From assembly GCA_963773975.1 (NCBI GenBank), contig CAVZDJ010000036.1, forward strand, positions 3,263 to 67,262: a stretch of 64,000 bases of DNA. Direction: 5' to 3'. Of the stretch, positions 1,165 through 23,500 are shown piece by piece. The notes under the pieces were generated by a model. The model made no database searches. It was given only the letters and a program-made list of their open reading frames with translations, and had not been told where the DNA came from. How positions within the stretch are numbered: the first letter of the stretch is position 1; every line of letters starts with the position of its first letter. The DNA comes from an uncultured delta proteobacterium. Lineage in GTDB: Bacteria > Desulfobacterota > Binatia > Binatales > Binataceae. Both the position numbers and the translations under genes were made by a program.

Positions 1165-1671
1165 ATGAAAATCTCGCCGAAGCTCAGTTTTCCCGTGCGT
1201 TTATCCTTCAGCCTCTCAGTTTTCCTAGTCTTCTGCGCTCCAATAGCAAACGCGCAAACTGACATGTTTATCTACCCGGGGAAGGGACAGGACCAAGCAC
1301 AACAGGATAAAGATCGCTATGAATGCCATTCCTGGGCGGTCCAACAAACGGGATTCGACCCGAGTAAGCCGCAGAGCGCAAACCCCCAACCCTCTCAGCA
1401 ACGTCAGACTTCTTCCGCTCCAATCCTACAAGGAGCAGGTCGAGGAGCCGCACTCGGAGCAGTTGGCGGAGCGATTACGGGTAACGCCGGCAAGGGCGCT
1501 GCTGCCGGAGCAGCAATGGGAGGCATGGTAGGCGGTTTTCGCCGTCGCGACGAGAGAATCCGGCAAGCAGACGTTAGAGCTGATGCGGAGTCGGCGTCTA
1601 ATCCCGGAAGACCGGCATACATGCGCGCGATGTCGGCGTGTCTGCAGGGACGCGGCTATACTGTCAATTGA
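1165..1671 (+). CDS. Secreted glycine-zipper family protein
   Basis: The internal ATG at 1165 gives MKISPKLSFPVRLSFSLSVFLVFCAPIANAQ, a signal peptide. A Gly/Ala zipper follows: GAGRGAALGAVGGAITGNAGKGAAAGAAMGGMVGG. The longer track start at 1081 is probably upstream read-through. Confidence 0.65.
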   Translation: MKISPKLSFPVRLSFSLSVFLVFCAPIANAQTDMFIYPGKGQDQAQQDKDRYECHSWAVQQTGFDPSKPQSANPQPSQQRQTSSAPILQGAGRGAALGAVGGAITGNAGKGAAAGAAMGGMVGGFRRRDERIRQADVRADAESASNPGRPAYMRAMSACLQGRGYTVN

Positions 1672-2860
1672 GGTTGCTGAAAGGTCTAGTAAGGGCATCT
1701 GTCGTCCGCAAAAACTCAACGACCCTCATGCAGCGCGAGCCAGGAGGCTGTACTCGTGGTGAAGTCCATTCAGGACCGGGTGCGCCACAACTCGGCTTGA
1801 TCGGTCGAAACGATGTCTCCGGCGTTGCAAAATGCACGCGGAAATTTAGCGGCGGATCGGGCAGGCCCGGCCCCAAAGAAGAGTGTGGTCGGCCGCGATT
1901 GTAATGCCGGAGCCAAGAGCGCAGGGTTTTTCGCAGATGCTCCTCGGTCAAGGGGATCATCCAATCCAGACACTCACGCCGGAGCGTCCCGATTAGCCTT
2001 TCGCAGAGCGAATTCGCCTTGGGGGTGCGCACGGGTGTTTCGATGACTTCGAGGCCCAGGTGCGCTAGCGAAGCATCGAGTCCGGTGGAGAAGATCGCAT
2101 CGCGGTCGTGGACGATAAAACGGTACGTGTGGTCTGAAGGGATGGCTTCACGGAGCTGTTGGAGGGTCCAGGCCGCGGTCGGATGGGCAGTCACGTTGAT
2201 GTGAACAATTCGGCGTGAAGCATGTTCCATCACCACGAGCACGTAAAGAATCCGAAAAGTGGCGGTCGCTACGACGCAGAAGTCACAGGCGATGATGGCG
2301 TCGGCGTGATTCTTGAGAAAGGTTGACCAACGCTGATCGCGGCGAGGGTTGCCGGCTGGTGCGGCCGGCAACTTTGGCAGATACTTCCGGATCGTGCGCG
2401 GCGACACGCGCAGGCCGAGTTTCAGCAACAACTCGTTTGCAATTCGCTCCTCGCCCCACGAGGGGTTCTCACGAGCCATCCTGCGGATCAGATGTTGGAG
2501 CTCCGGCGGAATCCGCGGCCGGCCAGATTGGCATTTCCGACGCCAGAAAAGCTGGAAGCCTTTGCGGTGCCAACCGATGAAGGTCTTGGGCGTCACGACC
2601 GTCAATGCGCTTCGCCAATTGAACCAACGGCTGAGCCATACGAGGGTCAAGCGGGTTGGATGGGAAGTTCGTCGGGGCTTGACTCTGCGTTCCTGGTAGA
2701 ACGCGAGCTGTTTGCGTAGGAAGAGATTCTCGGCCGCGAGCGAGCTTTTGGATCGTAAAGTGAGAATCAAAAAGCGGAGCAAATCGGCAAAGAGGTTCAG
2801 CCAAAGCAGGCAGGATCTCATCATGGACGGATGTCTTTGTTTTCGATCTCCTCCCTTCAA
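1664..2860 (-). CDS. DDE transposase with an integrase core (rve) domain and an N-terminal HTH
   Basis: 398-aa ORF. Diagnostic stretches are …WGEERIANELLLKLGLRVSPRTIRKYL… (HTH) and …CDFCVV…HDRDAIF…TPKANSLCERLIGTLRRECLD…HYNRGRPHSSL (rve). The ORF runs about 35 nt past the left inverted repeat. Confidence 0.85.
   Translation of the reverse strand: MKGGDRKQRHPSMMRSCLLWLNLFADLLRFLILTLRSKSSLAAENLFLRKQLAFYQERRVKPRRTSHPTRLTLVWLSRWFNWRSALTVVTPKTFIGWHRKGFQLFWRRKCQSGRPRIPPELQHLIRRMARENPSWGEERIANELLLKLGLRVSPRTIRKYLPKLPAAPAGNPRRDQRWSTFLKNHADAIIACDFCVVATATFRILYVLVVMEHASRRIVHINVTAHPTAAWTLQQLREAIPSDHTYRFIVHDRDAIFSTGLDASLAHLGLEVIETPVRTPKANSLCERLIGTLRRECLDWMIPLTEEHLRKTLRSWLRHYNRGRPHSSLGPGLPDPPLNFRVHFATPETSFRPIKPSCGAPGPEWTSPRVQPPGSRCMRVVEFLRTTDALTRPFSNLN
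1699..1716. repeat. Left terminal inverted repeat of the IS481-like element
   Basis: Pairs with 2898-2915 at 16 of 18 positions. Confidence 0.65.
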
Positions 2861-2897
2861 ATGGGTGGCAATTTAGCGCACTCCCAGCCAAGCCGGT

Positions 2898-2915
2898 AAT
2901 TTTTGCGGAGGACAG
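2898..2915. repeat. Right terminal inverted repeat of the IS481-like element
   Basis: AATTTTTGCGGAGGACAG is the reverse complement of the left repeat with two mismatches. Confidence 0.65.
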
Positions 2916-3290
2916 TCGGTCCACTGGTGGCGACGGCTGTGGTCGCGGCGATCGGTAATGCGCGGCAATTCACCAACGGCCGCGAGCTCAGCGCCTGGCT
3001 GGGGCTGGTGCCGCGCGAGCACTCCAGCGGCAAGCGCACGGTGTTACTCGGCATCAGCAAGCGCGGCAATCGTTACCTGCGCACGCTGCTCATCCACGGC
3101 GCACGCGCTGCCACTCGCGTGGTCGAGCGCAAACGCGACGCGCGTAGCATCTGGCTGAGTCGGCTTAAGCTGAGAGGCGGAACCAACCTGGCGACGGTGC
3201 CCTCGCCAACAAGAACGCACGAGTGATGTGGGCACTGCTGGCGCGCGGCGACTCCTATCGTGTGCGAACAGACACAGCGGCCGCGGCCTG
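2916..3290 (+). pseudogene. IS110-family transposase, C-terminal fragment, 5'-truncated by the IS481-like element and frameshifted
   Basis: GPLVATAVVAAIGNARQFTNGRELSAWLGLVPREHSSGKRTVLLGISKRGNRYLRTLLIHGARA is the classic Transposase_20 region and begins directly at the IS boundary. The expected tail, ALANKNARVMWALLARGDSYR, continues in another frame after about 3195. Confidence 0.75.
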
Positions 3291-3809: not shown

Positions 3810-4880
3810 GTGCGATGCGGGTTATTCATAACGGGAGAACGAGATTCCCATATGTGCCTAGATCTGCCGGTCGCTATAAGTAGCGACGAAGAGATGATGA
3901 GGAAACGCCACACCAGATTCACTAGACCCAGCTATGTTGATCCGTTGGGTCCAGCATTCGATTTAGAATGCAGTCTCATCCACTCGAGATTTGTTACCTT
4001 CACGGGGCGGCTTCCTCCACTGCTAGCGATTCGGGCCCTGGACATGCGGACATACCTTGGGAAGAGTGCACGACCAAGGCGCGTGAAACCCATACCGGAC
4101 TGTATACGCGCAATCACAGTGCTTCCGTATGTGCTGCGCAGCCACTTTCCGGTGGAATTGGATCGCATTCGGACGCTGGCCTATGCTCTGACGCTTGGGG
4201 GCCTGTACGCAATGGCGGAGGACAAATTAATCGATTCGCAAGTGGATCCGGAGCTGGGCCTGGCCCTTCTCGTGCCGACTTTGCATTGCGAATTTGTAAG
4301 AACGCTTCATCAGATTTTTCCGCCGACTTCCGATTTCTGGCCGTACCACGACAGGTTCTTCCGCGAGTACCAAATGGCGGAACTTACGCATCGAAAGGGA
4401 GTCGGCCGCCGACCGATCCAACCGCGCAAATACTACAGCATCATCAAAGCCAAATCGGCCCCCATTAAACTGGCTGTCTGCGGCATGGCGATCCTTGCCA
4501 GCCGCCGGGAGCGGCTTGCTCCCCTATTAAAAAGTTTCGATGCCTGGATCATCGGATACCAGCTCTATGATGACGTTGTTGATTGGCAGGAGGATTATTT
4601 CGCTCGCAGGCACTCGCTGATCGGGGCGAGGATCAGGCAGTTGGTTCGCGGGAACAACAAGCGATATCGATTACCGGAACTTACAAAGATCGTCCATTCT
4701 TCGGATGTAATCGAGTCGGCGTTGGAGGAAAGCACACGGTGGTTTATGCGGGCTGAGAAATCGGCCGAGGGAAACCGATGCGATGACTGGATCAGGTTCT
4801 TGCGAGATTTCGCCTCGATAACAACCGCTGCGGTTCAGGACTTGGTGACTCTCAAAGTAAGAATCTTGTTCGGGCACTGA
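3810..4880 (+). CDS. Isoprenoid (polyprenyl) synthase-fold protein, ComQ-like; start codon uncertain
   Basis: Three motifs align with trans-prenyl synthases. They are LYAMAEDKLIDSQVD (degenerate first Asp-rich motif, nt about 4218-4247), YYSIIKAKSAPIKLAVCGMAIL (compare the KTA region) and GYQLYDDVVDWQED (FQxxDDxxD-type second motif, nt 4569-4583). The gene lies 23 nt upstream of the putative precursor gene. Alternative starts are at 3852 and 3894. Confidence 0.6.
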   Translation: MRCGLFITGERDSHMCLDLPVAISSDEEMMRKRHTRFTRPSYVDPLGPAFDLECSLIHSRFVTFTGRLPPLLAIRALDMRTYLGKSARPRRVKPIPDCIRAITVLPYVLRSHFPVELDRIRTLAYALTLGGLYAMAEDKLIDSQVDPELGLALLVPTLHCEFVRTLHQIFPPTSDFWPYHDRFFREYQMAELTHRKGVGRRPIQPRKYYSIIKAKSAPIKLAVCGMAILASRRERLAPLLKSFDAWIIGYQLYDDVVDWQEDYFARRHSLIGARIRQLVRGNNKRYRLPELTKIVHSSDVIESALEESTRWFMRAEKSAEGNRCDDWIRFLRDFASITTAAVQDLVTLKVRILFGH

Positions 4881-4903
4881 GGAAAGGCGAGAGGAGGATT
4901 ATT

Positions 4904-5284
4904 ATGGCTACGAAGAAATCTTCCCAGGCGCGGAAGAAAAAGGCAGGCAAGAAGAAGCCTGTGGCGACCGTCGGGAATCTGGTAAATGACGCTATAAGGG
5001 ATCCAGATATCCGATCGGCGCTCTATAAAAATCCGCGAGTCGTTGCGAAACAGTACGGCTTGACGAGTGCGGAAGGGAAAGCAATGGAGGTCCTTAAGCG
5101 ATCCCTTCTATCCAGCCTGGATCGCAATCAGGTTAAGCAGCTGGAAGCGATCATTCGGTTGCCTGTCGCAGGATGGGGCGGTTGCAACCCATCGCAAGCC
5201 CCACCGTGTGGCCCGTCGACGACTTGCAACCCCACATGCTTACCGGCTTGTCTTCCCAATCCGTGCGCCCCGAGGACCCTCTAA
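4904..5284 (+). CDS. Putative RiPP precursor peptide: long leader, GG motif, and a 33-aa core with six Cys
   Basis: 126 aa with a GGAGG-containing stretch (gagaggagga) upstream. The leader contains …AIRDPDIRSALYKNPRVVAKQYGLT…, which is NHLP/Nif11-like in flavour. …PVAGWGG is followed by CNPSQAPPCGPSTTCNPTCLPACLPNPCAPRTL (nt 5183-5281). Confidence 0.6.
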   Translation: MATKKSSQARKKKAGKKKPVATVGNLVNDAIRDPDIRSALYKNPRVVAKQYGLTSAEGKAMEVLKRSLLSSLDRNQVKQLEAIIRLPVAGWGGCNPSQAPPCGPSTTCNPTCLPACLPNPCAPRTL

Positions 5285-5307
5285 TTTGGCTCGGCGGAGG
5301 TGTCGAT

Positions 5308-6234
5308 TTGAGTAAGTCAAAGGTAGTAGCAGGAACACGCTGTCGTTCTAACGCTGTCCAGAGCGATCCATCGTTCAAGGGCCTTAGTTTCCTTTGGCTG
5401 GAAATCACCCCTGGATGCAACCTGCATTGCCGGCATTGCTATACTGAGTCATCGCCTGCTCTTAGGAATCCGAGGATTGTCGATTGGGAGAAGGTACTGA
5501 CGGACGCATACCGCGCTGGTTGCAGACAGGTGCAATTCATCGGAGGAGAGCCGACGTACAACACTCCACTCCTTCAGTACATATCGACGGCCCGGAAACT
5601 TGGCTATACGTTCGTAGAAGTATACACAAACCTCACTCTTATCTCGGAGACCCTAGCTGATCAGTTGCGTAAGTATAGGGTGCAGCTTGCCACTTCATTC
5701 TATAGCCCCCGCAGGGAAGCCCATGAAGCGGTGACAGGAGTCAGGGGAAGCTTCGACAAGACGGTGAGCGGAATCCGGTGCGTGCTGCGAAAGAAGATTC
5801 CTTTGCGGGTTGGCGTCATTTCCCTGGAAACGAATAAGAATGAAGCCAGAGACTGCATCGAGTTCCTCGTTCGAATAGGCGTTGACAGAAATAACATCAG
5901 AATCGACCATACAAGGCCGGTGGGCAGAGGTGAAAATCTCGTAAAGCTCCAGAGCCTGGAAGAAACGTTATGTGGTCACTGTTGGGAGGGAAAATTGGCG
6001 GTCTCCTGGGATGGTACTTGTTATCCATGCGTTTTCTCAAGGGAGGTTACGGTTGGCACAGTTACTGCCAGCAACCTGGGCGAAGTTCTTCGCTCGGAGC
6101 GGCTGGAGCAATTTAGAAAACGCATATTCAATTACTCATCTCGTTTTGCCGTGAGAACGGGTGGGCAGGATCTGTTGGGCAGCCTTTTGGCGCTTTTTTC
6201 CGGCAACTCTGGCCACGAGAGCGGGCCGTCCTAA
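5308..6234 (+). CDS. Radical SAM enzyme with a C-terminal SPASM-type Cys cluster; peptide-modifying maturase candidate
   Basis: GCNLHCRHCY provides the CxxxCxxC motif, followed by GGEPT. The C-terminal CGHCWEGKLAVSWDGTCYPCVFS matches SPASM spacing. I prefer the TTG at 5308, which has GGAGG 7 nt upstream, over the track start at 5173, which overlaps the precursor. Confidence 0.85.
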   Translation: MSKSKVVAGTRCRSNAVQSDPSFKGLSFLWLEITPGCNLHCRHCYTESSPALRNPRIVDWEKVLTDAYRAGCRQVQFIGGEPTYNTPLLQYISTARKLGYTFVEVYTNLTLISETLADQLRKYRVQLATSFYSPRREAHEAVTGVRGSFDKTVSGIRCVLRKKIPLRVGVISLETNKNEARDCIEFLVRIGVDRNNIRIDHTRPVGRGENLVKLQSLEETLCGHCWEGKLAVSWDGTCYPCVFSREVTVGTVTASNLGEVLRSERLEQFRKRIFNYSSRFAVRTGGQDLLGSLLALFSGNSGHESGPS

Positions 6235-6981: not shown

Positions 6982-8265
6982 TTAGAAGAAGACAAAGGCT
7001 CGGACCACGACGTTCTTGCGGCAGGGAGCGTCGTCGGGCGCGGTTGGGTCGATGCAGGCAGTGTGGAAAGACCAGCGCGAGACGGAACCGTCGGTGACAG
7101 AGTCGTAGCACTTGAGCATCGAGACCTCGGTCGGCTTCTGCTGGGGAAACCAGTACCACTCGTGGTCGGGGCGGTAGGTGAAGCGGGTGGTCTCGCCGAC
7201 GCGGTCGTCGTAGACGCGGTAGTTGGTGATGTACGGCTGGTCGGCGAAAGAGGGCCAGGCGCAGAGCACGAAGGGGTTCTGGCGCACCGTCTCCATCGGC
7301 TTGGCGAGGTTGATCGACACGAACCGCCGCGACATCTTCGCGTCGGCCTGCTCCTCCGTATAGTGCTGCTCGCGCCCGAAGTTCCGCAGGTTCTTGGTGA
7401 GCAGCTCGCGGCAGCGCACGCGGCCGCTGTTGTCGTTCAGGTCGTTGTGCACGATGTAGGCGTAGTTGGCGTTCACGCCCGGATTCTTGTTGTCCTGATC
7501 CTCTGTGCGGTCGCCCTTGTAGTCCTTGTCAAACACGTCGTGGTTGTACACGAGCGCATCCGTCGCGTCCGGGAAAAACTCCAAGAGGAGCTTCTCCATC
7601 TCCGGGTAGAACACGCGCTCCACCTCCGCCGCGTCGTAAAAGTTCCCGCACTTGGACTCGCAGTGCGCCAGCGCAACGCCAAGCTTGTCCATGCACTCGG
7701 GGCTGCTGGGCGAGAGACCTGGGTAGTACTCCTCCATTCGTCGCGCGTCGCGCAACAGCTGCGGAAAATAGAGGCATCGGCGCCCGATGTCCTGCTCTTC
7801 CTTGCGCAACGCCTTTGCCTCGGCCTCGCGCGCAGGGTCCCGCCAGAGCGCGTTGGACGAGACGATGGAGTAGGACGGTTGCTCGTACACGGTGTAGCGC
7901 AGCGGAACCGCTACGCCGCCTTCAGGGGCTTCGATGTTGTTGGCCCGAATATATTCCAGGCACTCTGAGTAGCTACGAAACCCGACGCCCCACTTGGTCT
8001 CGGATCGGGCCGGGGGGAGCGTTGTCGAGCAGGTCGCTAACCGCCTGTCCTTGCCCCTCGGCAAGCTGGTGGAGCGCCGCCTCCGTCGCTGCAGCAGTTC
8101 CCGCATCCCCGTCTCGATCGAACGACATGTAGGATAAACCGCCGTTCGCAGCGATGGGTGGCGGCTGCCCTTCCGTGAGTTGGAGGGGAGGCACATAGAC
8201 TGACGAAACACTCTCCGTAACCCCCGCAACGTGATTCTCGATGGAATTGAGCCGGTCCACAGCAT
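6982..8265 (-). CDS. CmcJ/NvfI-family oxygenase-like protein; the N-terminal third is probably in another frame
   Basis: The C-terminal two thirds (…YPEMEKLLLEFFPDATDALVYNHDVF…YAYIVHNDLN…RFTYRPDHEWYWFPQQKPTEVSMLKCYDS…VVVRAFVFF) resemble the CmcJ/AsaB/NvfI family. Upstream of about 7990 the more protein-like reading is the overlapping ORF 7973-8260 (MDRLNSIENHVAGVTESVS…), which suggests a frameshift. Confidence 0.6.
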   Translation of the reverse strand: MLWTGSIPSRITLRGLRRVFRQSMCLPSNSRKGSRHPSLRTAVYPTCRSIETGMRELLQRRRRRSTSLPRGKDRRLATCSTTLPPARSETKWGVGFRSYSECLEYIRANNIEAPEGGVAVPLRYTVYEQPSYSIVSSNALWRDPAREAEAKALRKEEQDIGRRCLYFPQLLRDARRMEEYYPGLSPSSPECMDKLGVALAHCESKCGNFYDAAEVERVFYPEMEKLLLEFFPDATDALVYNHDVFDKDYKGDRTEDQDNKNPGVNANYAYIVHNDLNDNSGRVRCRELLTKNLRNFGREQHYTEEQADAKMSRRFVSINLAKPMETVRQNPFVLCAWPSFADQPYITNYRVYDDRVGETTRFTYRPDHEWYWFPQQKPTEVSMLKCYDSVTDGSVSRWSFHTACIDPTAPDDAPCRKNVVVRAFVFF

Positions 8266-15232: not shown

Positions 15233-18200
15233 TCAACCGCTGTTATCTTTCACGATGCGGTATATCTGCTGCCCGTACCTCTCCACGGTCGTCATTCCAA
15301 TACCGGAAATGCCGAGTAGCTCGCGGGCTGTTCCTGGGCGTCTGCTGGCCATGGCTTTCAGTGCCCGGTCACTGAAGATGCGAAACGCCGGAACTCTGCG
15401 TCGTCGGGCCTCGGCCATTCGCCACTCACGCAGGGCCGCTTCGATACGGGAATCCGATCCAGCGTGTTGGGCCGATGACACGGGCTTTTGCCGGACTACC
15501 TTTTCCGATCGCTCCGAACGCTTCCGTTTCTCTGGCGTGGCGGCTCTCTTCTTGTTCTTGCCGGTTGCCGAGGCCGGCGCCAGATCTTTTATGATGAAAC
15601 CGATGGGAGTCTGTTCGTCGACCGAGTGAGCCGCGGGTGTGAGACTCACCTTGCGATACGGGATCTGCTTGCCATCTTTCTCGAACACGGCATCCGAAAG
15701 GCGCACCAGTCCGGCCCGCGCCATTGCGCCCAGGACTTCTTCGAAGGCGTCACGGCTCATCACACCGTTCGGACACAACTCGCCGTGAAGCTTGCCCGTT
15801 GATTTCGTATCGCCCGCGCGGAGGGCCGCGATTACACGGAACAGCGCAGTGCGTTCCGCCTCCGTGGCGGTCCGGAACCGTTGGGCGACACACTGCGCAG
15901 GAGCGCAAAAATCGCAGATCCCGCACGCCGTCTGTCCATCTGCAAGATCGCCAAAGTGGCGCACTAGCGTGGACATGCGGCACTGGTTGCTCTCGGCGTA
16001 CCGGATCACCAAGTCGATCTGCGCCCGCTTCTGCTTCCCGTGAGCGATGTACGACTTCCGCCACTGGGGCTGGCCGCAGCTGACGTTTTCGGCAAAGTCC
16101 ATCACGGCGCCCCCGTGGATCCATAGTTTTTCGAGAGCTTTGTCGAAGATGTCAGGTTTCATCCGCAGTCGCTTCTGCAGGGCTGTCTTCTCTTGAGGCT
16201 CAGAGCGGAGCTGGGCAAGAATCCCGTCCAATACCGCGACATCTGGGTAATCGCGTTCGAAGAAGAAATCGTGCGTGTAGCGATCGGCGTAGGAGTGCAT
16301 TAAGATTGCACGGCTTGGTCTTCCATCGCGCCCTGCTCGTCCGATCTCTTGGTAGTACGCCTCCAGGCTTCCCGGCAAGGCCGTATGGATAATGGTGCGG
16401 AGATCCGGCTTATCGATTCCCATGCCAAACGCAATCGTCGCGACCATGACTTCAATTCTGCCGACGAGGAATTCTTCCTGGACCCGCTCGCGATACTCGG
16501 CCTCGAGCCCAGCGTGATACGCCGCCGTGGCAAAGTGCCCGGCAAGTTCCGCAGCCAACGTATCCGCCTGCTTTCGAGTCGGCGTGTAGATGATGCCTGG
16601 CCTGCGGCCGGCATCGAGCAGTAATTCGCAGGCGAGCTCAGCTCGTCGGGACGGTGCAATCTCGAGCACCTCAATTGCGAGATTGGCGCGTCGAAACCCG
16701 TGAATGAAACGAGCCGGTTGGGCAAGTCCTAACTGTGCGCAGATATCGTCCTGAACGAGCGGGGTAGCTGTCGCGGTGAGTGCAATTACAACCGCCGGTC
16801 GCAACGATGGCAGATATTGACCGAGCATCCGGTAATCCGGCCGAAAGTCATGCCCCCACTGCGAGATGCAGTGGGCTTCATCGATAGCAATTAGTGACGG
16901 CTTGCGTTTCCCGAGCATCTCAGGGAAACCCGCCACGCGGAGTCGTTCCGGCGCGATGAACAGGAATTGTAGTTTGCCGTTGAGGTAATCCATGCAGGCC
17001 TGGCGGGAGGCTCCGCGGTTGCGGCCAGAATGAATACGGTCTACCGCGAATCCCCGCTCTTTGAGCTTGGCCACCTGATCTTCCATCAACGCGATGAGCG
17101 GACTGATCACGAGCGTTGTCCCTCCACGCGCGATCCCAGGCAACTGGTAGCACAGAGACTTGCCGGATCCAGTCGGCATAACCAGCAAGGCATCTTTGCC
17201 CTCAACCGCTGCCCGACAGACCGCTTCCTGGTTTGGACGAAACGAGGAAAATCCGAAGGCGTTCTGCAAGAGGCTCGGCAGCGAATCGCTCGTGAGTGGC
17301 GCTGCCGTATTGGCCGGTTCTGGCTGAATTTGGAGCCGTTGCGGATCTCCGACCGCGGCGGCCCCTACAGCCTTTGCAGCCGTAGCCGGTTTCCCGACTT
17401 TGCCCACGACCTGCCGCACGTAATTTTCGATGCCCTCAAGGAAAGGCTCCAGCGGCTCAGCCCCGCGCTGGATCCGCTTGAGGTGTGCTTCCCACTGGCC
17501 AGTCATGGCGGGACTCTTGACCTCGATATGCACAACTTCGATGAGCCGGATGCCCTTGTCGGTTGCCTCCAGGCTTTTTCCATTGCGCACGATGTAGCCG
17601 CGCTTGAGCAGCACCTCGATGATGGCCGCACGCGTCGCCGGAGTGCCGAGACCAGTCTCCTTCATGGCCTCCGAGAGTTCCTTCTCTTCAAGTGTCTTAC
17701 CAGCGGTCTCCATAGCCGTGAGTAGCGTCGCTTCCGTGAAGCGCTTGGGAGGCCGCGTGCTTTTCTTCACGGCGTTAATTTCGACCACTGTTTGAAGTTG
17801 GCCCTTTTGAAGATCCGGGGGTAAAGTCTCCGGGCGCCGCTGATCCTCCCTCCCGTCGTCGTCTTTTGTCGTGCTCTTCTCGGCCGAGCGCTCCAGCACT
17901 TTCCATCCGGCCTGTTCCACCGTGGTTCCTGAGGTGTGATAGCGGTCAACAATATCGCTGTTGGCGATGCTGGTGATCACGGTTGTAACCGACCAGATAT
18001 AATCATCGTGCCACGCACCAAGCAGGCGGCGGCAAATCAGATCGTAGATTTTGCGCTCGTCAGCGGATAAGGCGACCTTGTCGGGCGAGGTGGCGGTAGG
18101 AATGATCGCGTGATGATCGGTGACCTTTGCATCATCGATGAATCGTCGCCCCAGCGGGCGCTCGCCGGTACGCGGAGCCAAGTGCTCTCGATACGGTGCC

Positions 18201-19273
18201 TCGATCGCCTTCACAACTCCTGGTAACGTCTGACTCACATCTTGCGACAGGTACCGGCTGTCCGTGCGCGGGTAGCTGACGAGCTTGTGGCGTTCATACA
18301 GCGCCTGTGCGAGATCTAGTGTTTGTTGCGCACTGAATCCGAAAAGGCGGTTCGCATGCCGCTGTAACTCCGTGAGGTCGTACAACGGTAGCGGAGCCAT
18401 CCGCTGCGTTTCGGATTTGATCGATTCGACTGAGGCGCTACCGCTGTGCGCACGCTCGACGATGCGTTTTGCTTCTTCGCCATCGCTTGGCAGTCGCATA
18501 GCCTGTTGCAGCGACTCCTGTCCCGGTCCATCTTCCTGTCGCTTGCGAAACCAAGTGCCCGCATAGCTGTTATCTGTCCTGCTTTCGATCGGACAAAAGC
18601 TGGCCACAATTTCCAGATAATCCTCAGATACGAATTTCCGGATGGCGAGTTCCCGTTCGACTAGCATAGCTAGCGTCGGAGTCTGCACGCGCCCCACGGA
18701 GAGCTCCTCGCTATAGGCAAGGGAGTATGCACGCGACAGGTTCATCCCTACTAGCCAGTCGGCCCGGCTGCGTCCCCGTGCGGCAGCGGCCAGTGAATCG
18801 TAATCGCTACCGGGTCTCAGCCGCTCGAAACCCTTGCGGATAGCCTCGGGTGTAAGCGAGGAGATCCACAGCCGACTGACGGGTTTTTGGCATCGTGCGG
18901 CTTCATAGATGTAACGAAAGATCAACTCGCCCTCTCGGCCGGCGTCGGTGGCGCACACCAGGCGCGAAATTCGCGGCGAATCCAGGATCTTCTGTACGAC
19001 TTCGAACTGCTCTCTCGTCTTTTCGTACGAAACGAGTGGCCACTGCTTTGGCAGCATGGGCAGCATGTCACGCCGCCAAAAGCGCCATTCGGGGTTCATC
19101 TCGTGCGGCTGTGCGAGTGCAATCAGGTGGCCGAGGGCCCAGGTCACCACGTAGCCGTTGCCGTGCAGATATCCTTCACCTTTTTTTGCGGCGCCGACAA
19201 CACGCGCGATGTCGCGCGCGACTGAAGGCTTTTCGGCAAGTACCGCGATCGTGTCGGATTCTGGAAGCGCCAT
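15233..19273 (-). CDS. Fusion protein: type IA DNA topoisomerase (Topo III-like) N-terminal half plus a RecQ-family helicase with HRDC as the C-terminal half
   Basis: Topoisomerase part: TOPRIM [14 protein letters not shown] and [13 protein letters not shown], and the active-site region [12 protein letters not shown]. Helicase part: [55 protein letters not shown], the Zn cluster [12 protein letters not shown]…CGICDFC, and a C-terminal HRDC-like [17 protein letters not shown]…ISGIG. The start is taken at ATG 19273 (GGGAG 8 nt upstream), giving 1346 aa. The track start at 19669 adds 132 implausible residues. Confidence 0.9.
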   Translation of the reverse strand: [1346 protein letters not shown]

Positions 19274-19831
19274 CTTGAAACTCCCAGTTTTGCGATGCGG
19301 CAACTTCGGATGCAGCGCTGCAGGCTGGACGTTTGGCAAATACGTCAATGCCGAGCCGAACTTCGGAGTCGGGCGCCGGCTATAGTCGACCTCAAGTCCT
19401 GACAGACCATCACCTCCGACGACGTCGCGCCTCGGTTCCTTTGCGCTCTCGCCACTGCTATCGCGGTTAGGTGAAACCCGCAAGGTGGTGGGTTGCTCGA
19501 AACAAACCTGTACCCACAACCCACCGCCCCAGAGTGTTGACAACCGCAGACCAAGTCCGCCCGGTCCCACTTGAAGTGCACAGTTCCCAGCCGCTGGACC
19601 GAATGCGATGCACTGGTGGTGATTATGACGTCTCTCTGTCACTGCTGCGATTGCCAGTGGTTGCGCCACATCATAGCCGCGATCACGCCATGCCAGCGAA
19701 CTTGACGGCGAGCAACCCCATATGAGAATTCACTCGATCGAGCGTGGGCGAACGCGCCGCGGTGGAGTTCGAACGCCTCGACCTTCAGAGCTATGATGCG
19801 TCAGTCGACCCAGGCCAGAAATTCAGCGGCT

Positions 19832-20591: not shown

Positions 20592-23500
20592 ATGGCAAAA
20601 ATGAATGCCGGGGGAGCAGCCGCAGCCGGGGGGTTCAGCGTTCAGGACCAAGTTGGCGCTGCGATTGCAGTGGAAATTTTGGCGGAGACTCAGAGTTCCG
20701 GGCGCTGGGACTTGCCGGCTAATACCGCCCTGCGCGAGCTTTGGTGTGAGACTCAGACTTCCGTTGATGACATCATCGTCCGGACTTCGGAAGACGGACA
20801 TTTATTCATTCAGGTAAAAAAGGGTCTCAAGCTGTCTAAGCAGAGCGGGTCACGCTTTGCGTCCGCATTGGACCAATGCGTTCGGCTCTTCATCGATAGT
20901 GAGTACGGGGGGGCCGATCTCAAACGCCGACTGAATCCTGATAAAGACAGGGTCGTCATCGTCACCGACGAAGACGCTTCCGCGTCCGTCAGAAAGCAGC
21001 TTCCTGATGCCCTGAAAAGATTGCGCGAGTCGCCGGCGGGAAATTTGGGGTTGGCTGCTAAAAGCAAAGCTGAGAAAGATGCGCTGGATACAGTAAGTCA
21101 GCTAGTTGACGGCGCGTGGAAGAAGCTCACCGGCAAAGTACCGTCGGACAAAGAACTCCGGAGTCTCCTCGGCCTGCTTCGCGTTGTGTGGCTCGACAGA
21201 GCCGGGTCCGAAACCGAGGCCAAGAGTTTGTTGGCCAGCACGGTTCTGACAGACCCAAGCCGCGCCGGCGACGCCTGGAATGCTCTGCTGAAAAGATGCC
21301 GGGAGTTGACCGAGACTCGCTCCGGTAGTGATGCATCCGGGCTGCAGAAAGTTCTTCTCGACACGGGACTGCCCCTGAAAGCGGTCCCGAGTTTCCGCGG
21401 AGACATCGGGCAGCTTCAAGATTTGACCGGTGAGAATCTGAGACTCCTGGAGCGTCATGCTTCGATCCGGATTGGCACAGATTTGCTGCCGGTTGCGCGG
21501 CGTGTGGTTGGAGAGCTTCGGCGCGTTGCGGAAGGGCAGTCGGTCCTTGTGGTGGGGGAGCCTGGCGGCGGCAAGTCTGGAGCAATTCATGACCTCGTCC
21601 ATCGGCTTCGCAAGGAGAATCGTGATGTGGTTCTCCTGGCAGCGGATCGCGTTGGCAGCCCCAGCCTACAGAGCCTTCGGACGGAACTGAGCCTCCAACA
21701 CGAGTTGGTTGATGTTCTGAAGAATTGGCCGGGGCCGCAACCGGGCTTTGTTGTCGTCGATGCGCTCGATGCCGCACGAAACGCGAGAGCATCTTGTGCA
21801 TTGCGCGAGCTGATCGAGCTTACGTTGCACGAGACGGGCCGCTGGCGAGTAGTGGCTTCGATCAGGAGCTTCGATTTGCAGTACGGGACGGAGTATCAGC
21901 GGCTCTTTCCGGCAACGGCGGTGGTGGAGGTCGAGGAGCAATTTCGTGCGGCGAAGTTCCATCGAACCAGCCACGTTAACGTACTGCCTTTCAGCGACAC
22001 AGAACTGCAGGAGATCGGAAAGCAATCGCCGGCGCTTGCTAATTTGATCGATTCAGCTCCGCCGGCCTTACGGAAGCTTCTGGCCGTTCCCTTCAATCTT
22101 GAACTTGCCGCCGAGCTGCTCACTGACGGACTGTCTGTCAAAGACCTGACCGGTATCTCCTCTCAGCTCGAGCTGCTCGACGGCTACTGGCATCAGCGGG
22201 TGATTTTGAACCGCGGTGTCAATGACGGCCAGGGCGACGGGCGTCAGGACGTGCTTCGACGTTCATGTCAGGAAATGGTAAGGACCCGCTCTCTTCGAGT
22301 GGGCCGAAGCACGATCGGGGACGCGACCAACAGTCAAGCGTTGAACGAAGTGTTGAGCGCTGGCGTGCTCAACGATGATCCAAGGCGCTTTACTTTGTCG
22401 TTCTCTCACCACACGCTTTTCGATTACGCGACCGCCCGGCTGGTTCTGACTTCTTCGGCTTCCGGCCTGGCCAGTCAGCTCGCTGGCGACGCCGAGCTTG
22501 CGTTGATTATCCGTCCCAGTCTCGGCTTCCACTTCCATCGCATCTGGGGTTTAGACTCCGCGCGAGAGGAGTTTTGGAAGACGGTCTTCGCCATCCTTCG
22601 GGAAGAGAAAGTTCCGGAGATTGGCAAGCTGATAGGGCCGTCTGTAGCCGCCGATCAGACGGATGCGATTGCGGAACTTGCGCTCCTCTGTAACGCGCTG
22701 GCCGAGTCCGACGAGAACGCCCGCCGGTCGGCTGAGGAGGCCCTTAATCATTTGGTCGGCGCGTTGGCGAACGCGCCATCCAGTCCGCAGGAGCTTGCGG
22801 GGCCCGAGGCTGGTCCTTGGTGCTACCTCGCAGAGCGAGTCAGCGAGAAGCTCACCGATCGCTCGGCGTACGCACTGGCTTCGCTGTTTTCCCTGCTGAA
22901 CGAACAAAGCGGTTCCTTTATGGCGGAGCAAAGAGTCGCAGCAGGCAAGGCAGCGCGCCGCCTTTTTGAGTTCGCCTGGAGCCTGTCACGTTACGACCGT
23001 TGGCTGATAATTCGGAGTATTCAGTCGGTCTGCCGAACTTTCGCGAGTGACGCGGATTCGTCGCGTGGACTTTTGCGGCGACTGATCGAGCCGGAACGGC
23101 TGAGCCAGCATGGTTTTGAGGAGCTACCTTGGCTAGCGCGAGAAGTCACCGGTCTTGTTCCGGCCGATCCGAATCTCGTTGAAGAAATTTATCAGTCCGC
23201 TTTCACCCATCCACTACCGGAGGAGGAAAAAACCGAATTCCTTCCAAGCCGCATACTGGGTCTAGTGTCTAATAAGCGGCAGGACTTCGAACACGGGTTG
23301 TGGCAATTGGCGGAATGCTTTCCGACTTTCCTCGACCCGGCCCCGCTTCAAGCAATTCGCGCGTTGATCTCGGCACTGGAGAAGTACGTCGAGCAGCACC
23401 ATCCAACGTTTTCTGGTGAGGTCGTTGAACGAACGTTCGCGTTCGATGGGGTCACGGCGCGAATTTGGCCCGACCTAAGCCATTCCTGGGACATCGGAAC

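What the first reader, a model, noticed from the sequence alone, without database searches (positions are those of the whole stretch)
3810..6234. Compact RiPP-like cluster: ComQ/polyprenyl-synthase-like enzyme, Cys6 precursor with a GG motif, and a radical SAM/SPASM maturase
**What the sequence shows**
- Three co-oriented, tightly spaced genes.
- A 356-aa protein with three motifs of the trans-isoprenyl-diphosphate-synthase fold. These are a degenerate first Asp-rich motif (AEDKLIDSQVD), a KSA region in the place of KTA, and YQLYDDVVD.
- A 126-aa peptide whose last 33 residues follow a ...VAGWGG motif. They read CNPSQAPPCGPSTTCNPTCLPACLPNPCAPRTL, with six Cys, 11 Pro and three Asn-Pro pairs.
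- A radical SAM enzyme with CxxxCxxC and a SPASM-like C-terminal Cys cluster.

**What is already known**
- SPASM radical SAM enzymes install thioether or other crosslinks on Cys-rich RiPP cores, as in sactipeptides and ranthipeptides/SCIFF.
- Double-glycine motifs mark leader cleavage sites.
- ComQ is an isoprenyl-synthase-like enzyme encoded immediately upstream of comX, and it prenylates a Trp of the ComX peptide.

**Inference**
- The gene order (synthase-like enzyme, then precursor) mirrors comQ-comX.
- The precursor has a single Trp next to the GG site.
- The locus may therefore encode a peptide that is both prenylated and rSAM-crosslinked. I do not know of a described example of that combination.
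- No protease or exporter gene is adjacent. IS debris lies upstream, so the cluster may be incomplete.
Basis: partly seen in the sequence, partly recalled or inferred. Interest (0 to 1): 0.85.

Follow-up and report, generated by a model that had tools for sequence, protein, structure and literature searches.

The report
Cys-x-Pro peptide, radical SAM, prenyltransferase-like cassette
Three tightly packed genes in a soil Acidobacteria-type genome encode a peptide whose tail is built only of Cys-x-Pro units, a radical SAM enzyme from a large, undescribed family that normally carries such a tail on itself, and a prenyltransferase-like protein; together they look like a new kind of modified-peptide pathway that can be tested directly.

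Summary
**Observation:** real. Three co-oriented genes have 23-nt gaps and GGAGG ribosome sites. They are A (3897-4880), B (4904-5284) and C (5308-6234).
- **A** has a trans-isoprenyl-diphosphate-synthase fold. It keeps the Asp, Gln and Lys positions that ComQ-type peptide prenyltransferases use.
- **B** has a conserved leader that resembles NHLP leaders only weakly. All six Cys of its core sit in C-x-P units.
- **C** is a radical SAM enzyme with a 4-Cys twitch-like auxiliary domain.

**Conservation:** the same triad recurs in unrelated genomic contexts and in two gene orders. No protease or exporter is conserved with it, so the cassette is self-contained.

- In about 80 more distant homologues of C, the C-x-P repeat is fused to the enzyme itself, at the C-terminus or sometimes the N-terminus. 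704 of 713 tail Cys are C-x-P.
- None of 27 fused loci encodes A. All 6 non-redundant split loci encode both A and the leader peptide.
- The Trp is invariant only in the closest clade and is Tyr in sister clades. The GG motif is not conserved.

**Best reading:** a RiPP cassette in which C modifies each C-x-P Cys and A prenylates, or at least docks, the leader-bearing peptide. The chemistry is unproven. I found no curated model and no paper covering it. **Verdict:** new variant of a known kind, interest 0.72.

The parts
3897..4880 (+). Gene A: trans-isoprenyl-diphosphate-synthase-fold protein, a putative peptide prenyltransferase and/or leader-docking partner. The ORF opens at GTG 3810; the likely start is ATG 3897/3900.
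   Evidence: - ORF listing.
- Start inferred from the homologue alignment.
- AF2 model with pLDDT 79.2 and pTM 0.78.
- The Foldseek PDB top 50 all have the trans-IDS fold, led by 5jfq at E=2e-5 and TM 0.61/0.70, and including Ord1 and MoeN5.
- Profile against PDB: 3oyr_A at E=2.1e-7.
- Pfam polyprenyl_synt reaches only E=0.13, below its cutoff.
4221..4235 (+). First Asp-rich motif (FARM) equivalent of A: D138-K-L-I-D142 within AEDKLID.
   Evidence: - D138 and D142 are invariant in 28 family members down to 22% identity.
- The motif aligns in register with the DDVID FARM of 9kp1_B and 5h9d_A.
- In the ComQ homologue StheQ, the FARM D85-E-x-x-D89 binds its Mg2+ through the first and last Asp.
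4560..4595 (+). Gln plus second Asp-rich motif (SARM) of A: Q251-L-Y-D254-D255-V-V-D258-W-Q-E-D262.
   Evidence: - Q251, D254, D255, D258, W259 and D262 are invariant in 28 members.
- The motif aligns with the FQxxDDxxD motif of trans-IDS enzymes.
- The Q-x-x-(N/D) spacing equals StheQ Q212/N215 and Ord1 Q216/D219 (PDB titles).
4893..4897 (+). GGAGG ribosome-binding site of the precursor gene B, 6 nt before its ATG.
   Evidence: Sequence read.
4904..5173 (+). Leader of precursor B (residues 1-90): a Lys-rich N-terminus followed by a conserved helical region that resembles NHLP leaders only weakly.
   Evidence: - Nearly invariant among 7 homologues.
- Still recognisable in sister clades (R37, L40, Y41, P44, A48, G52, A60, L64, K65, L68, Q76 and L80 invariant).
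- NCBIfam NF038399 (Os1348 NHLP clan) gives E=0.0039 and 17.2 bits against a cutoff of 40; TIGR03793 gives E=0.15.
5174..5179 (+). W91-G92, the conserved aromatic-Gly junction and candidate prenyl acceptor.
   Evidence: - W91 and G92 are invariant in the triad clade.
- W aligns with Y in the L008 and L010 precursors, while G92 is invariant in all ten sequences.
5183..5281 (+). Core of precursor B (residues 94-126): six C-x-P units, CNP..CGP..CNP.CLP.CLP..CAP.
   Evidence: - 6 of 6 Cys are C-x-P.
- The columns C94/P96, C102/P104, C108/P110, C116/P118 and C121/P123 are invariant in homologues.
5296..5300 (+). GGAGG ribosome-binding site of the rSAM gene C, 7 nt before TTG 5308.
   Evidence: Sequence read.
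5308..6234 (+). Gene C: radical SAM enzyme with a twitch-like auxiliary-cluster domain (308 aa). It has no RRE domain and no C-x-P tail.
   Evidence: - Pfam Radical_SAM 2.8e-21 and SPASM 3e-8.
- No NCBIfam model reaches its cutoff.
- AF2 model with pLDDT 78.5.
- Foldseek top hits are SkfB, SuiB, anSMEcpe, PqqE and CteB.
- phmmer against PDB: SkfB at 7e-7.
5416..5439 (+). CxxxCxxC radical SAM cluster motif (C37, C41, C44 of C).
   Evidence: 97% conserved in 119 family members.
5971..6030 (+). Auxiliary-cluster Cys of C: C222-x2-C225 ... G236-x-C238-x2-C241 (CGHC...DGTCYPC).
   Evidence: - C222, C225 and C241 are 100% conserved.
- The fourth ligand is either C238 (37% of members) or the column of A231 (63%).
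1664..3226 (.). Upstream IS remnants, which are context and not part of the cassette: an rve transposase at 1664-2860 (minus strand) and an IS110-family fragment at 2903-3226 (plus strand).
   Evidence: Pfam rve_3 8e-15, HTH_32 and Transposase_20 1e-21.

Best explanation
**What it is.** A self-contained three-gene RiPP cassette. It is the 'split' form of a much larger, undescribed family of radical SAM enzymes whose substrate is a run of Cys-x-Pro units.

**Proposed pathway**
1. Precursor B is made of a conserved leader, an aromatic-Gly junction (Trp91-Gly92) and a 33-residue core of six C-x-P units.
2. The twitch-type radical SAM enzyme C acts on the Cys of every C-x-P unit.
   - Only Cys and the Pro at +2 are constrained, and the spacing between units varies.
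   - The chemistry is therefore probably local to each unit.
   - The most likely outcome is an H-atom abstraction at or next to Cys that gives a thioether cross-link.
   - The alternative is an anSME-like oxidation of Cys, whose natural motif is C-x-P-x-R.
3. Protein A has a trans-isoprenyl-diphosphate-synthase fold and retains the metal/diphosphate-binding residues. It binds the leader-bearing peptide and most likely transfers a prenyl group to the junction aromatic residue. This is Trp91 here and Tyr in sister clades.
4. The product would be a lipidated, Cys-modified peptide.

**Shown**
- The gene set and its conservation.
- The folds of A and C.
- The residue conservation in A.
- The C-x-P rule.
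- The link between architecture and A: fused loci lack it and split loci carry it.

**Inferred**
- That C modifies C-x-P.
- Which chemistry C performs.
- That A is catalytically active.
- The acceptor residue.
- How the leader is removed and what the product does.
For: **Cassette**
- A-B-C is syntenic in L001/L013 (Edaphobacter MAG), L002/L003 and L004/L014 (Bryobacteraceae MAG), each with different flanks.
- Two other tail-less rSAM subclades were reached through the rSAM alone (P0059 in L008, P0046 in L010).
  - Each has a homologous leader plus C-x-P precursor upstream.
  - Each has an A homologue convergent downstream, at 35-39% identity and E=5e-60.

**C-x-P as the substrate**
- In 82 homologues whose tails are fused to the enzyme, 704 of 713 tail Cys are C-x-P. 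All Cys in 7 split cores are C-x-P.
- Repeats occur C-terminally, N-terminally (L028, L036) and as discrete small ORFs beside related full-SPASM rSAMs. One of these rSAMs has an RRE-like N-domain (L026).

**rSAM type**
- SkfB, SuiB, anSMEcpe, PqqE and CteB are the top structural neighbours.
- SkfB is the top sequence hit.

**Protein A**
- The fold is established.
- D138, D142, Q251, D254, D255, D258 and D262 are invariant down to 22% identity.
- These positions match the Mg2+/diphosphate ligands of the ComQ homologue StheQ.
- The wider family has 1038 representatives.
  - It includes about 680-aa fusions to squalene-hopene-cyclase-like domains. That is the prenyltransferase-plus-cyclase layout reported for the RiPP enzyme ChrPC (PMC13290415).
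  - It also includes a fusion to a SPASM-type domain in a ranthipeptide-like cluster.

**Association**
- 0 of 27 non-redundant C-terminally fused loci encode A.
- 6 of 6 non-redundant tail-less twitch-type loci that carry a leader-bearing precursor encode A.
Against: - No activity has been measured for any of the three proteins.
- A fails the Pfam polyprenyl_synt cutoff (11.9 bits against 27), and its FARM has Lys in place of the second Asp.
- The Trp is not conserved across all split clades. All characterised trans-IDS-like peptide prenyltransferases are Trp-specific.
- Fused relatives work without A, so A is not needed for the C-x-P chemistry itself. It could be purely a docking protein.
- No protease, exporter or immunity gene is conserved, so the fate of the leader and the biological role are unknown.
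- Four of the six split loci were retrieved through A itself, so the 6-of-6 figure is partly circular. Only L008 and L010 are independent.
- One twitch-type locus, L046, shows no repeat and no A, but only 46 bases follow its rSAM gene. L049 has an incomplete family match.
- A prediction of the A-B complex could not be run.
Confidence: 0.55

Rival explanations
1. A is not an enzyme here. It is a leader-binding scaffold that stands in for the missing RRE domain and presents the free precursor to the rSAM. No prenyl group is added, and the only modification is the rSAM chemistry on C-x-P.
For: - A is present exactly when the substrate is a separate, leader-bearing peptide. It is absent whenever the repeat is tethered to the enzyme.
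- C has no RRE or PqqD-like domain.
- The presumed acceptor Trp is replaced by Tyr in sister clades.
- The FARM is degenerate, D-K-x-x-D.
Against: - The Asp, Gln and Lys positions that bind Mg2+ and diphosphate in ComQ-type and IDS enzymes are invariant down to 22% identity. This includes multi-domain relatives in other gene contexts. A pure scaffold would not be expected to keep them.
- StheQ works with a D-E-x-x-D FARM.
Confidence: 0.2
2. The C-x-P stretch is not a substrate. It is a thiolate-rich metal- or Fe-S-binding appendage, either an extended or degenerate SPASM half or a metallothionein-like tail. B would then be a small metal-binding partner protein rather than a RiPP precursor.
For: - In most relatives the repeat is part of the enzyme and sits where the second half of a SPASM domain would lie.
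- The fused genes stand alone, with no processing genes nearby.
- The composition is very Cys-rich at 16%.
Against: - Unit number (3-18) and spacing (3-8 and more) vary freely, and Pro makes up 22% of the tail. This does not fit a fixed cluster-binding site.
- The repeat can sit at the N-terminus instead (L028, L036).
- It can also lie on separate small ORFs next to rSAMs that already have a complete SPASM domain, and in one case an RRE-like domain.
- In the split clades the repeat hangs on a conserved leader with weak NHLP similarity.
Confidence: 0.12
3. A is an ordinary isoprenoid enzyme, a short-chain diphosphate synthase or terpene synthase that makes a small molecule. It is only a neighbour of an rSAM/peptide pair.
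For: - Its fold and best database hits are chain-elongating trans-IDS enzymes.
- A 'GKSARPRR' stretch resembles the IPP-binding GKxxR motif. This is read directly from the sequence and compared from my own knowledge of IDS motifs.
Against: - A co-occurs strictly with the leader peptide and the tail-less rSAM, in two gene orders and three clades.
- The intergenic gaps are 23 nt.
- The family is tiny, Acidobacteria-restricted and absent from 185,577 of 185,579 species genomes.
- It scores far below the Pfam and NCBIfam cutoffs for real synthases.
- Relatives are fused to SPASM-type or cyclase domains in RiPP-like settings.
Confidence: 0.05

Closest known systems
ComQ/ComX and other trans-IDS-like peptide prenyltransferases (PalQ, StheQ, the P domain of ChrPC)
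   Same: - An all-alpha trans-IDS fold encoded directly next to a small peptide gene, in the order enzyme then peptide.
- The first and last Asp of the FARM are retained.
- A Gln sits one helical turn before the second motif.
- In the window's clade an invariant Trp is flanked by Gly.
- Relatives of A show the prenyltransferase-plus-cyclase fusion layout reported for ChrPC.
   Different: - A keeps a full DDxxD SARM, where ComQ and StheQ have a pseudo-SARM (N-D-x-x-D).
- The second FARM position of A is Lys.
- A has no significant sequence match to any curated ComQ or polyprenyl model.
- The Trp becomes Tyr in sister clades.
- The partner peptide has a 90-residue leader and a Cys-x-Pro core.
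- An rSAM enzyme is an obligate third member. No paper describing that combination was found.
Thioether-forming twitch/SPASM radical SAM RiPP maturases (SkfB, sactipeptide and ranthipeptide/SCIFF enzymes such as CteB and PapB)
   Same: - A radical SAM core plus an auxiliary-cluster domain, with a Cys-rich core peptide encoded alongside.
- SkfB is the best match in both sequence and structure.
   Different: - No equivalog model is met. The best NCBIfam hit, ScmF, scores 64.9 bits against a cutoff of 400.
- There is no RRE.
- Only one auxiliary cluster is predicted.
- The substrate rule is C-x-P with free spacing, not the CX3D, NxxC or SCIFF patterns.
- Most family members carry the substrate on the enzyme itself.
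Anaerobic sulfatase-maturing enzyme (anSME) acting on C/S-x-P/A-x-R
   Same: - An rSAM/SPASM-type enzyme whose recognition element is Cys with Pro at +2.
- anSMEcpe is among the top structural neighbours.
- Some fused tails end in CPPYR.
   Different: - The sulfatase_rSAM model is not among the family's hits for C.
- No sulfatase lies nearby.
- The Arg at +4 is not conserved.
- There are many tandem sites instead of one.
Borosins (OphMA-type enzyme-precursor fusions and their 'split' relatives)
   Same: - One family has both a form with the core peptide fused to the modifying enzyme and a form with a discrete precursor.
- The comparison rests on my own knowledge of borosins.
   Different: - The enzyme class is unrelated: a SAM N-methyltransferase there, a radical SAM enzyme here.
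- Here the split form gains an extra protein (A) and a long leader.
NHLP/Nif11-type leader peptides
   Same: - A long helical leader of about 90 residues precedes a short hypervariable Cys-rich core.
- There are weak matches to the Os1348 NHLP-clan, NHLP and nitrile hydratase alpha models.
   Different: - All scores are far below the cutoffs (17.2 against 40, and 12 against 50.9).
- The Gly-Gly site is not conserved, and no PCAT transporter is present.
- The N-terminus is Lys-rich.

Membership tests
Radical SAM / SPASM-twitch peptide maturases | CxxxCxxC cluster motif and a radical SAM core domain | tested here: met
   - CNLHCRHC is present.
- Pfam Radical_SAM scores E=2.8e-21, 76.8 bits against a cutoff of 29.5.
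- The motif is conserved in 97% of 119 relatives.
Radical SAM / SPASM-twitch peptide maturases | A full SPASM domain: 7-8 Cys including CX2CX5CX3C, binding two auxiliary clusters | tested here: not met
   - Only C222, C225, C238 and C241 follow the core, and no further Cys occurs up to the C-terminus.
- The Pfam SPASM match covers profile positions 3-55 of 67.
- The domain is therefore twitch-like.
Radical SAM / SPASM-twitch peptide maturases | An RRE (PqqD-like) leader-recognition domain, fused or adjacent | tested here: not met
   - Pfam and NCBIfam give no PqqD/RRE hit for A, B or C at E<=1.
- The rSAM core starts about 30 residues from the N-terminus.
- A dedicated RRE-Finder was not available.
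Radical SAM / SPASM-twitch peptide maturases | A cognate Cys-containing peptide encoded next to the enzyme and conserved with it | tested here: met
   The precursor is syntenic in every split locus. In relatives the same repeat is fused or adjacent.
Sactipeptide / ranthipeptide (SCIFF, PapB, AlbA, SkfB) equivalogs | A score above the curated cutoff of the family model | tested here: not met
   - StsB scores 59 bits against 625.
- AlbA scores 50.1 against 850.
- PapB scores 41 against 340.
- The SCIFF maturase model is not among the 25 best hits listed.
Trans-IDS-like peptide prenyltransferases (ComQ, PalQ, StheQ, ChrPC-P) | All-alpha trans-isoprenyl-diphosphate-synthase fold | tested here: met
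   - The AF2 model has pLDDT 79.
- The Foldseek top 50 all have this fold, including the prenyltransferases Ord1 and MoeN5.
- Profile against PDB gives E=2e-7.
Trans-IDS-like peptide prenyltransferases (ComQ, PalQ, StheQ, ChrPC-P) | FARM Asp residues that hold the Mg2+-diphosphate of the prenyl donor (first and last Asp) | tested here: met
   - D138 and D142 are invariant.
- They are in register with DDxxD of 9kp1_B and 5h9d_A.
- The middle position is Lys here and Glu in StheQ.
Trans-IDS-like peptide prenyltransferases (ComQ, PalQ, StheQ, ChrPC-P) | A conserved Gln one helical turn upstream of the (pseudo-)SARM | tested here: met
   Q251-x-x-D254 is invariant. This is the same spacing as StheQ Q212/N215.
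Trans-IDS-like peptide prenyltransferases (ComQ, PalQ, StheQ, ChrPC-P) | A Trp acceptor in the adjacent peptide | tested here: inconclusive
   W91 is invariant in the window's clade. It aligns with Tyr in the L008 and L010 precursors, which have no Trp in the C-terminal part.
Trans-IDS-like peptide prenyltransferases (ComQ, PalQ, StheQ, ChrPC-P) | Sequence-level membership of the ComQ or polyprenyl_synt families | tested here: not met
   - Pfam polyprenyl_synt scores 11.9 bits against a cutoff of 27.
- The only NCBIfam hit is HepT, at 13 bits against 456.
- The InterPro ComQ family IPR033965 could not be searched.
Trans-IDS-like peptide prenyltransferases (ComQ, PalQ, StheQ, ChrPC-P) | Prenyl transfer to the peptide | not testable with these tools
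   This needs co-expression or an in vitro assay followed by mass spectrometry.
NHLP/Nif11 leader RiPP precursors | A score above the cutoff of a leader model | tested here: not met
   - NF038399 scores 17.2 bits against 40.
- TIGR03793 scores 12 bits against 50.9.
NHLP/Nif11 leader RiPP precursors | A conserved Gly-Gly (or Gly-Ala) cleavage site with a C39-peptidase ABC exporter | tested here: not met
   - The residues after Trp are GG, GS, GT or GI.
- No peptidase or ABC transporter is conserved in any of the loci.
Anaerobic sulfatase-maturing enzymes | A match to the sulfatase_rSAM model and a C/S-x-P-x-R target in a sulfatase | tested here: not met
   - The model is not among the hits for C.
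- The targets are tandem C-x-P units with no conserved Arg at +4.
- No sulfatase lies adjacent.

The most novel reading that the evidence does not exclude
**Proposal.** C-x-P-repeat peptides are the substrate of a widespread radical SAM clade that has not been described.

**Distribution.** The clade was seen in Acidobacteriota, Actinomycetota, Proteobacteria, a Synechococcus record and a Nitrosotalea (archaeal) record.

**Four architectures**
- Repeat fused to the C-terminus of the enzyme.
- Repeat fused to the N-terminus of the enzyme.
- A short discrete precursor beside a full-SPASM enzyme.
- A leader-bearing precursor together with a trans-IDS-like protein.

**What the window would then be.** It holds the last and rarest form. 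That form would be the first RiPP pathway to combine radical SAM cross-linking or oxidation of Cys with IDS-type prenylation. It would also widen IDS-type peptide prenylation beyond Trp, to Tyr.
Probability: 0.4. Interest if true: 0.85.

Novelty: new variant of a known kind. Interest (0 to 1): 0.72.

Why it matters
**If the reading holds, it gives three things.**

1. **A new RiPP substrate rule.** The rule is Cys-x-Pro, with only two constrained positions and free spacing. It belongs to a large rSAM family that current mining tools miss, because the enzymes lack an RRE and most have no separate precursor gene.
2. **A natural fused-versus-split series.** Like the borosins, it shows how a self-modifying enzyme becomes a leader-dependent pathway, and which extra protein is recruited at that step.
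3. **A candidate for a peptide that is both prenylated and rSAM-modified.** I found no description of this combination in the searchable literature. It could also extend trans-IDS-like peptide prenyltransferases beyond Trp.

**Practical point.** The cassette is only 2.4 kb and three genes, so heterologous expression followed by mass spectrometry can settle it quickly.

Tried and rejected
**Searches that found nothing**
- **Curated models.** No Pfam or NCBIfam model reaches its cutoff for A, for B, for the fused rSAMs or for the discrete C-x-P peptides.
- **Literature.** No paper was found under any of these term sets:
  - 'CxP' with radical SAM
  - polyprenyl synthetase with NHLP and radical SAM
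  - ComQ with RiPP and radical SAM
  - fused, Cys-rich and Pro-rich rSAM
  - formylglycine with RiPP
- **Unavailable paper.** The ChrPC paper (Hubrich 2024, PMC11484575) is not held. The link between A's relatives and ChrPC therefore rests on domain architecture alone.
- **Plasmids.** A has no homologue in 72,556 plasmids.
- **Species genomes.** Only 2 of 185,579 species genomes carry A.
- **Transcription signals.** The promoter and terminator scans were no better than shuffled sequence.

- The diverse alignment A3 was too divergent for the search for related loci.

**Ideas considered and rejected**
- **The C-x-P tail as the missing second half of the SPASM domain.** Rejected because the repeat can be N-terminal. 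It also occurs beside enzymes with a complete SPASM domain.
- **The downstream 427-aa gene as a conserved tailoring enzyme.** It is a CmcJ/NvfI-family oxidoreductase. It is not conserved in other loci, and it is unrelated to the similar-sized gene in L001.
- **Short contigs around two A-plus-cyclase fusion proteins.** They gave no usable context.

Full report
**1. What is in the sequence**

The three ORFs exist as described.

- **Starts.**
  - Homologue alignment places the start of A at ATG 3897/3900 rather than GTG 3810.
  - The rSAM most plausibly starts at TTG 5308, preceded by GGAGG at 5296-5300 and just after the precursor's stop at 5282-5284.
  - The precursor's ATG at 4904 has GGAGG six bases upstream.
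  - The three genes are therefore separated by 23-nt gaps and do not overlap.
- **Correction 1.** The 33-residue tail has 9 Pro, not 11.
- **Correction 2.** The 'SPASM-like cluster' of the rSAM is only four Cys (CGHC...GTCYPC) with no CX2CX5CX3C. It is a twitch-like or partial SPASM domain.
- **Upstream IS remnants.** They are real: an rve-type transposase and a truncated IS110-family fragment.

**2. The three proteins**

*Protein C.*
- It is a bona fide radical SAM enzyme (Pfam Radical_SAM 2.8e-21, SPASM 3e-8).
- It reaches no curated NCBIfam cutoff.
- Its AF2 model has pLDDT 78.5.
- The model is closest to the RiPP maturases SkfB and SuiB, then anSMEcpe, PqqE, TigE and CteB. SkfB is also the best sequence match in the PDB (7e-7).
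- C has no RRE domain.

*Protein A.*
- Sequence alone links it only marginally to polyprenyl synthases (Pfam E=0.13).
- Profiles of its family hit trans-isoprenyl diphosphate synthases in the PDB. E=0.007 with 12 sequences and 2e-7 with 28.
- The AF2 model (pLDDT 79, pTM 0.78) matches only proteins of the trans-IDS fold in its top 50 Foldseek hits. These include the non-elongating prenyltransferases Ord1 and MoeN5.
- Across 28 family members down to 22% identity, the invariant residues are D138, D142, Q251, D254, D255, D258, W259 and D262, plus a Lys in the KxKSAPxK segment, W177 and a C-terminal Trp.
- D138-K-L-I-D142 aligns in register with the DDVID first Asp-rich motif of solved synthases.
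- In the crystal structure of the ComQ homologue StheQ, the motif D85-E-x-x-D89 binds the single Mg2+ through its first and last Asp. A Gln one turn before the second motif contacts the diphosphate (bioRxiv 10.64898/2026.08.29.745113).
- A has the same arrangement, and it keeps a full DDxxD second motif.

*Protein B.*
- It has weak, sub-threshold similarity to NHLP-clan leaders.
- Its leader is almost invariant among seven homologues.
- Its core varies in sequence and length, but it is built only of C-x-P units.

**3. Conservation of the triad**

- A-B-C occurs in the same order in an Edaphobacter MAG, a Bryobacteraceae MAG and several metagenome contigs. The flanking genes differ each time, and none shares a protease, exporter or other gene.
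- The IS debris in the window is therefore incidental, and the cassette is complete as a conserved unit.
- Only 2 of 185,579 species-level genomes carry A, so this form is rare.
- Two further subclades of tail-less rSAMs were reached only through the rSAM search. Each has a homologous leader plus C-x-P precursor upstream and an A homologue (35-39% identity) on the opposite strand downstream. The association thus survives a change of gene order.

**4.

- The rSAM has more than 300 homologues.
- **C-terminal fusion.** From about 59% identity downwards, nearly all carry a C-terminal extension made of the same C-x-P repeat, 3-18 units long.
- **The C-x-P rule.**
  - In 82 such tails, 704 of 713 Cys are followed by Pro at +2.
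  - The residue between them is small or polar.
  - The spacing between units ranges freely from 3 to 8 or more.
- **N-terminal fusion.** Two members carry the repeat at the N-terminus instead (L028, L036).
- **Discrete peptides.**
  - More distant full-SPASM relatives have discrete small ORFs with C-x-P repeats immediately beside them (L040, L041, L043, L048, L051, L053, L062).
  - L026 has one too, and its N-domain looks like an RRE.
- **Phylogeny.** A neighbour-joining tree places the window's tail-less clade inside the fused family.
- **Distribution.** Fused genes occur in cultured Streptomyces, Amycolatopsis, Paraburkholderia, Rhizobium and Sphingomonas. There they are annotated only as 'radical SAM protein'.
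- **Curation.** No curated model covers any of these proteins.

**5. Fused versus split**

- None of 27 non-redundant C-terminally fused loci encodes an A homologue or a leader peptide.
- All six non-redundant tail-less twitch-type loci that carry the leader peptide also encode A.
- Four of those six were found through A, so only L008 and L010 are independent tests. Both are positive.
- A is therefore tied to the free, leader-bearing form of the substrate, not to the C-x-P chemistry itself.

**6. What A probably does**

- A's family is larger than the triad: 1038 representatives at E<=1e-3.
- Many members are about 680 aa, with an A-like N-domain followed by a squalene-hopene-cyclase/prenyltransferase alpha-alpha-toroid domain.
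  - That is the prenyltransferase-plus-cyclase layout the literature describes for ChrPC.
  - ChrPC is a RiPP enzyme whose trans-IDS-like P domain prenylates Trp and whose C domain cyclises the prenyl group (review PMC13290415).
  - I could not obtain the ChrPC sequence or the original paper, so this link is an inference.
- Another relative is fused to a SPASM-type domain, inside a cluster with a SCIFF/PapB-like rSAM and a SPASM-signal-peptidase fusion.
- Taken with the invariant metal/diphosphate residues, the most likely role is a prenyltransferase that also recognises the leader.
- The candidate acceptor is the aromatic residue of the invariant (W/Y)-G junction. It is Trp in the window's clade and Tyr in the sister clades.
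- That substitution is the main weakness, because all characterised enzymes of this type are Trp-specific.
- The alternative is that A is a catalytically silent docking protein replacing an RRE. The co-occurrence pattern explains that equally well, but the residue conservation explains it less well.

**7. What C probably does**

- Only Cys and Pro(+2) are constrained and the spacing is free, so the reaction is probably confined to each unit.
- Structural neighbours suggest thioether formation (SkfB, CteB) or Cys oxidation (anSME, whose motif is C-x-P-x-R). I cannot discriminate between these.
- I considered whether the repeat is an Fe-S or metal-binding appendage rather than a substrate. I judge this unlikely, for three reasons:
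  - The repeat varies in number and position, at either terminus or on a separate ORF.
  - It occurs beside enzymes with a complete SPASM domain.
  - In the split clades it is attached to a conserved leader with weak NHLP similarity.

**8. Comparison with known systems, and novelty**

- The cassette works like a RiPP pathway and combines two known enzyme superfamilies.
- It fails the membership tests of every named family I could check: sactipeptide, ranthipeptide, anSME, ComQ/polyprenyl_synt and NHLP.
- The C-x-P rule, the fused forms and the rSAM-plus-IDS-like pairing were not found in the curated libraries or the searchable literature.
- RRE-based compendia of RiPP rSAMs would miss it by design.
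- I rate it a new variant of a known kind. It has a substantial chance of defining a new RiPP class.

**9. Limits**

- No experiment was possible.
- The A-B complex could not be modelled.
- Context could be retrieved for only a limited number of loci.
- The acceptor residue, the donor chain length, leader removal and the biological role are all unknown.

Noticed in passing
P0039-P0138; L005 8001-9059; L006 8001-8939; L101 3938-4879: Most homologues of the window's rSAM carry a C-terminal tail of 3-18 Cys-x-Pro units fused to the enzyme. 704 of 713 tail Cys are C-x-P. They occur in Sphingomonas, Streptomyces clavuligerus pSCL4, Amycolatopsis, Paraburkholderia, Rhizobium sullae, a Synechococcus record and a Nitrosotalea record, and are annotated only as 'radical SAM protein'.
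   Followed up: yes
L036 1601-2533; L028 1104-2090: Two family members carry the C-x-P repeat at the N-terminus of the rSAM enzyme instead of the C-terminus, for example MEQL...WCYPDLCNPYNCKPDPECRPHGCRPS... before the CxxxCxxC motif.
   Followed up: partly
L026 4486-4725; L040 1571-1765; L048 5984-6262; L051 1408-1611; L062 1561-1758; L043 529-921; L053 4152-4670: More distant rSAMs with a complete SPASM domain have discrete small ORFs with C-x-P repeats directly beside them. One has a near-perfect tandem CWPRQN repeat (L048). L026's enzyme has an RRE-like N-domain.
   Followed up: partly
L012 146-6802: A different RiPP-like cluster contains four notable genes: a 324-aa protein with weak squalene-cyclase-repeat similarity; a 781-aa fusion of an A-like trans-IDS-fold domain with a pseudo-rSAM/SPASM domain; a SPASM-domain plus signal-peptidase-I fusion; and a SCIFF/PapB-like rSAM maturase.
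   Followed up: partly
P0145, P0147, P0149, P0155, P0165, P0217, P0274: Many relatives of protein A are 650-1100 aa fusions to squalene-hopene-cyclase/prenyltransferase alpha-alpha-toroid domains, in either domain order. This is possibly the ChrPC-type prenyltransferase-cyclase class. Their contigs were too short to show precursors.
   Followed up: partly
window 4904-4975: The precursor starts with a strongly Lys-rich stretch (MATKKSSQARKKKAGKKKP). It is conserved in the closest homologues but absent from the sister-clade precursors. This is unusual for NHLP-type leaders and remains unexplained.
   Followed up: no
window 6982-8265 (-): The gene immediately downstream, on the opposite strand, is a CmcJ/NvfI-family oxidoreductase (135.7 bits against a cutoff of 80). 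It is not conserved next to the triad elsewhere, so it is probably unrelated, but it could be a strain-specific tailoring enzyme.
   Followed up: partly
window 15233-19669 (-): A 1478-aa ORF fuses a type IA topoisomerase (Toprim plus Topoisom_bac) at the N-terminus to a RecQ-type helicase (DEAD, Helicase_C, RecQ_Zn_bind, HRDC) at the C-terminus. From my own knowledge, this is the reverse domain order to reverse gyrase.
   Followed up: no
window 20592-25547 (+): A 1651-aa ORF has no Pfam domain and only a marginal NCBIfam hit (FtsY, E=3e-4).
   Followed up: no
window 44435-46408 (+); 1664-3226: A Prim-Pol primase/polymerase gene, together with the IS remnants near the cassette, suggests that parts of the window are mobile or recently rearranged DNA.
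   Followed up: no
L002 3326-4717 (-) / L003 7220-8611 (-): In one triad locus a second, unrelated 463-aa radical SAM gene lies just downstream on the opposite strand. It has no equivalog match, and it is absent from the window and the other loci.
   Followed up: partly
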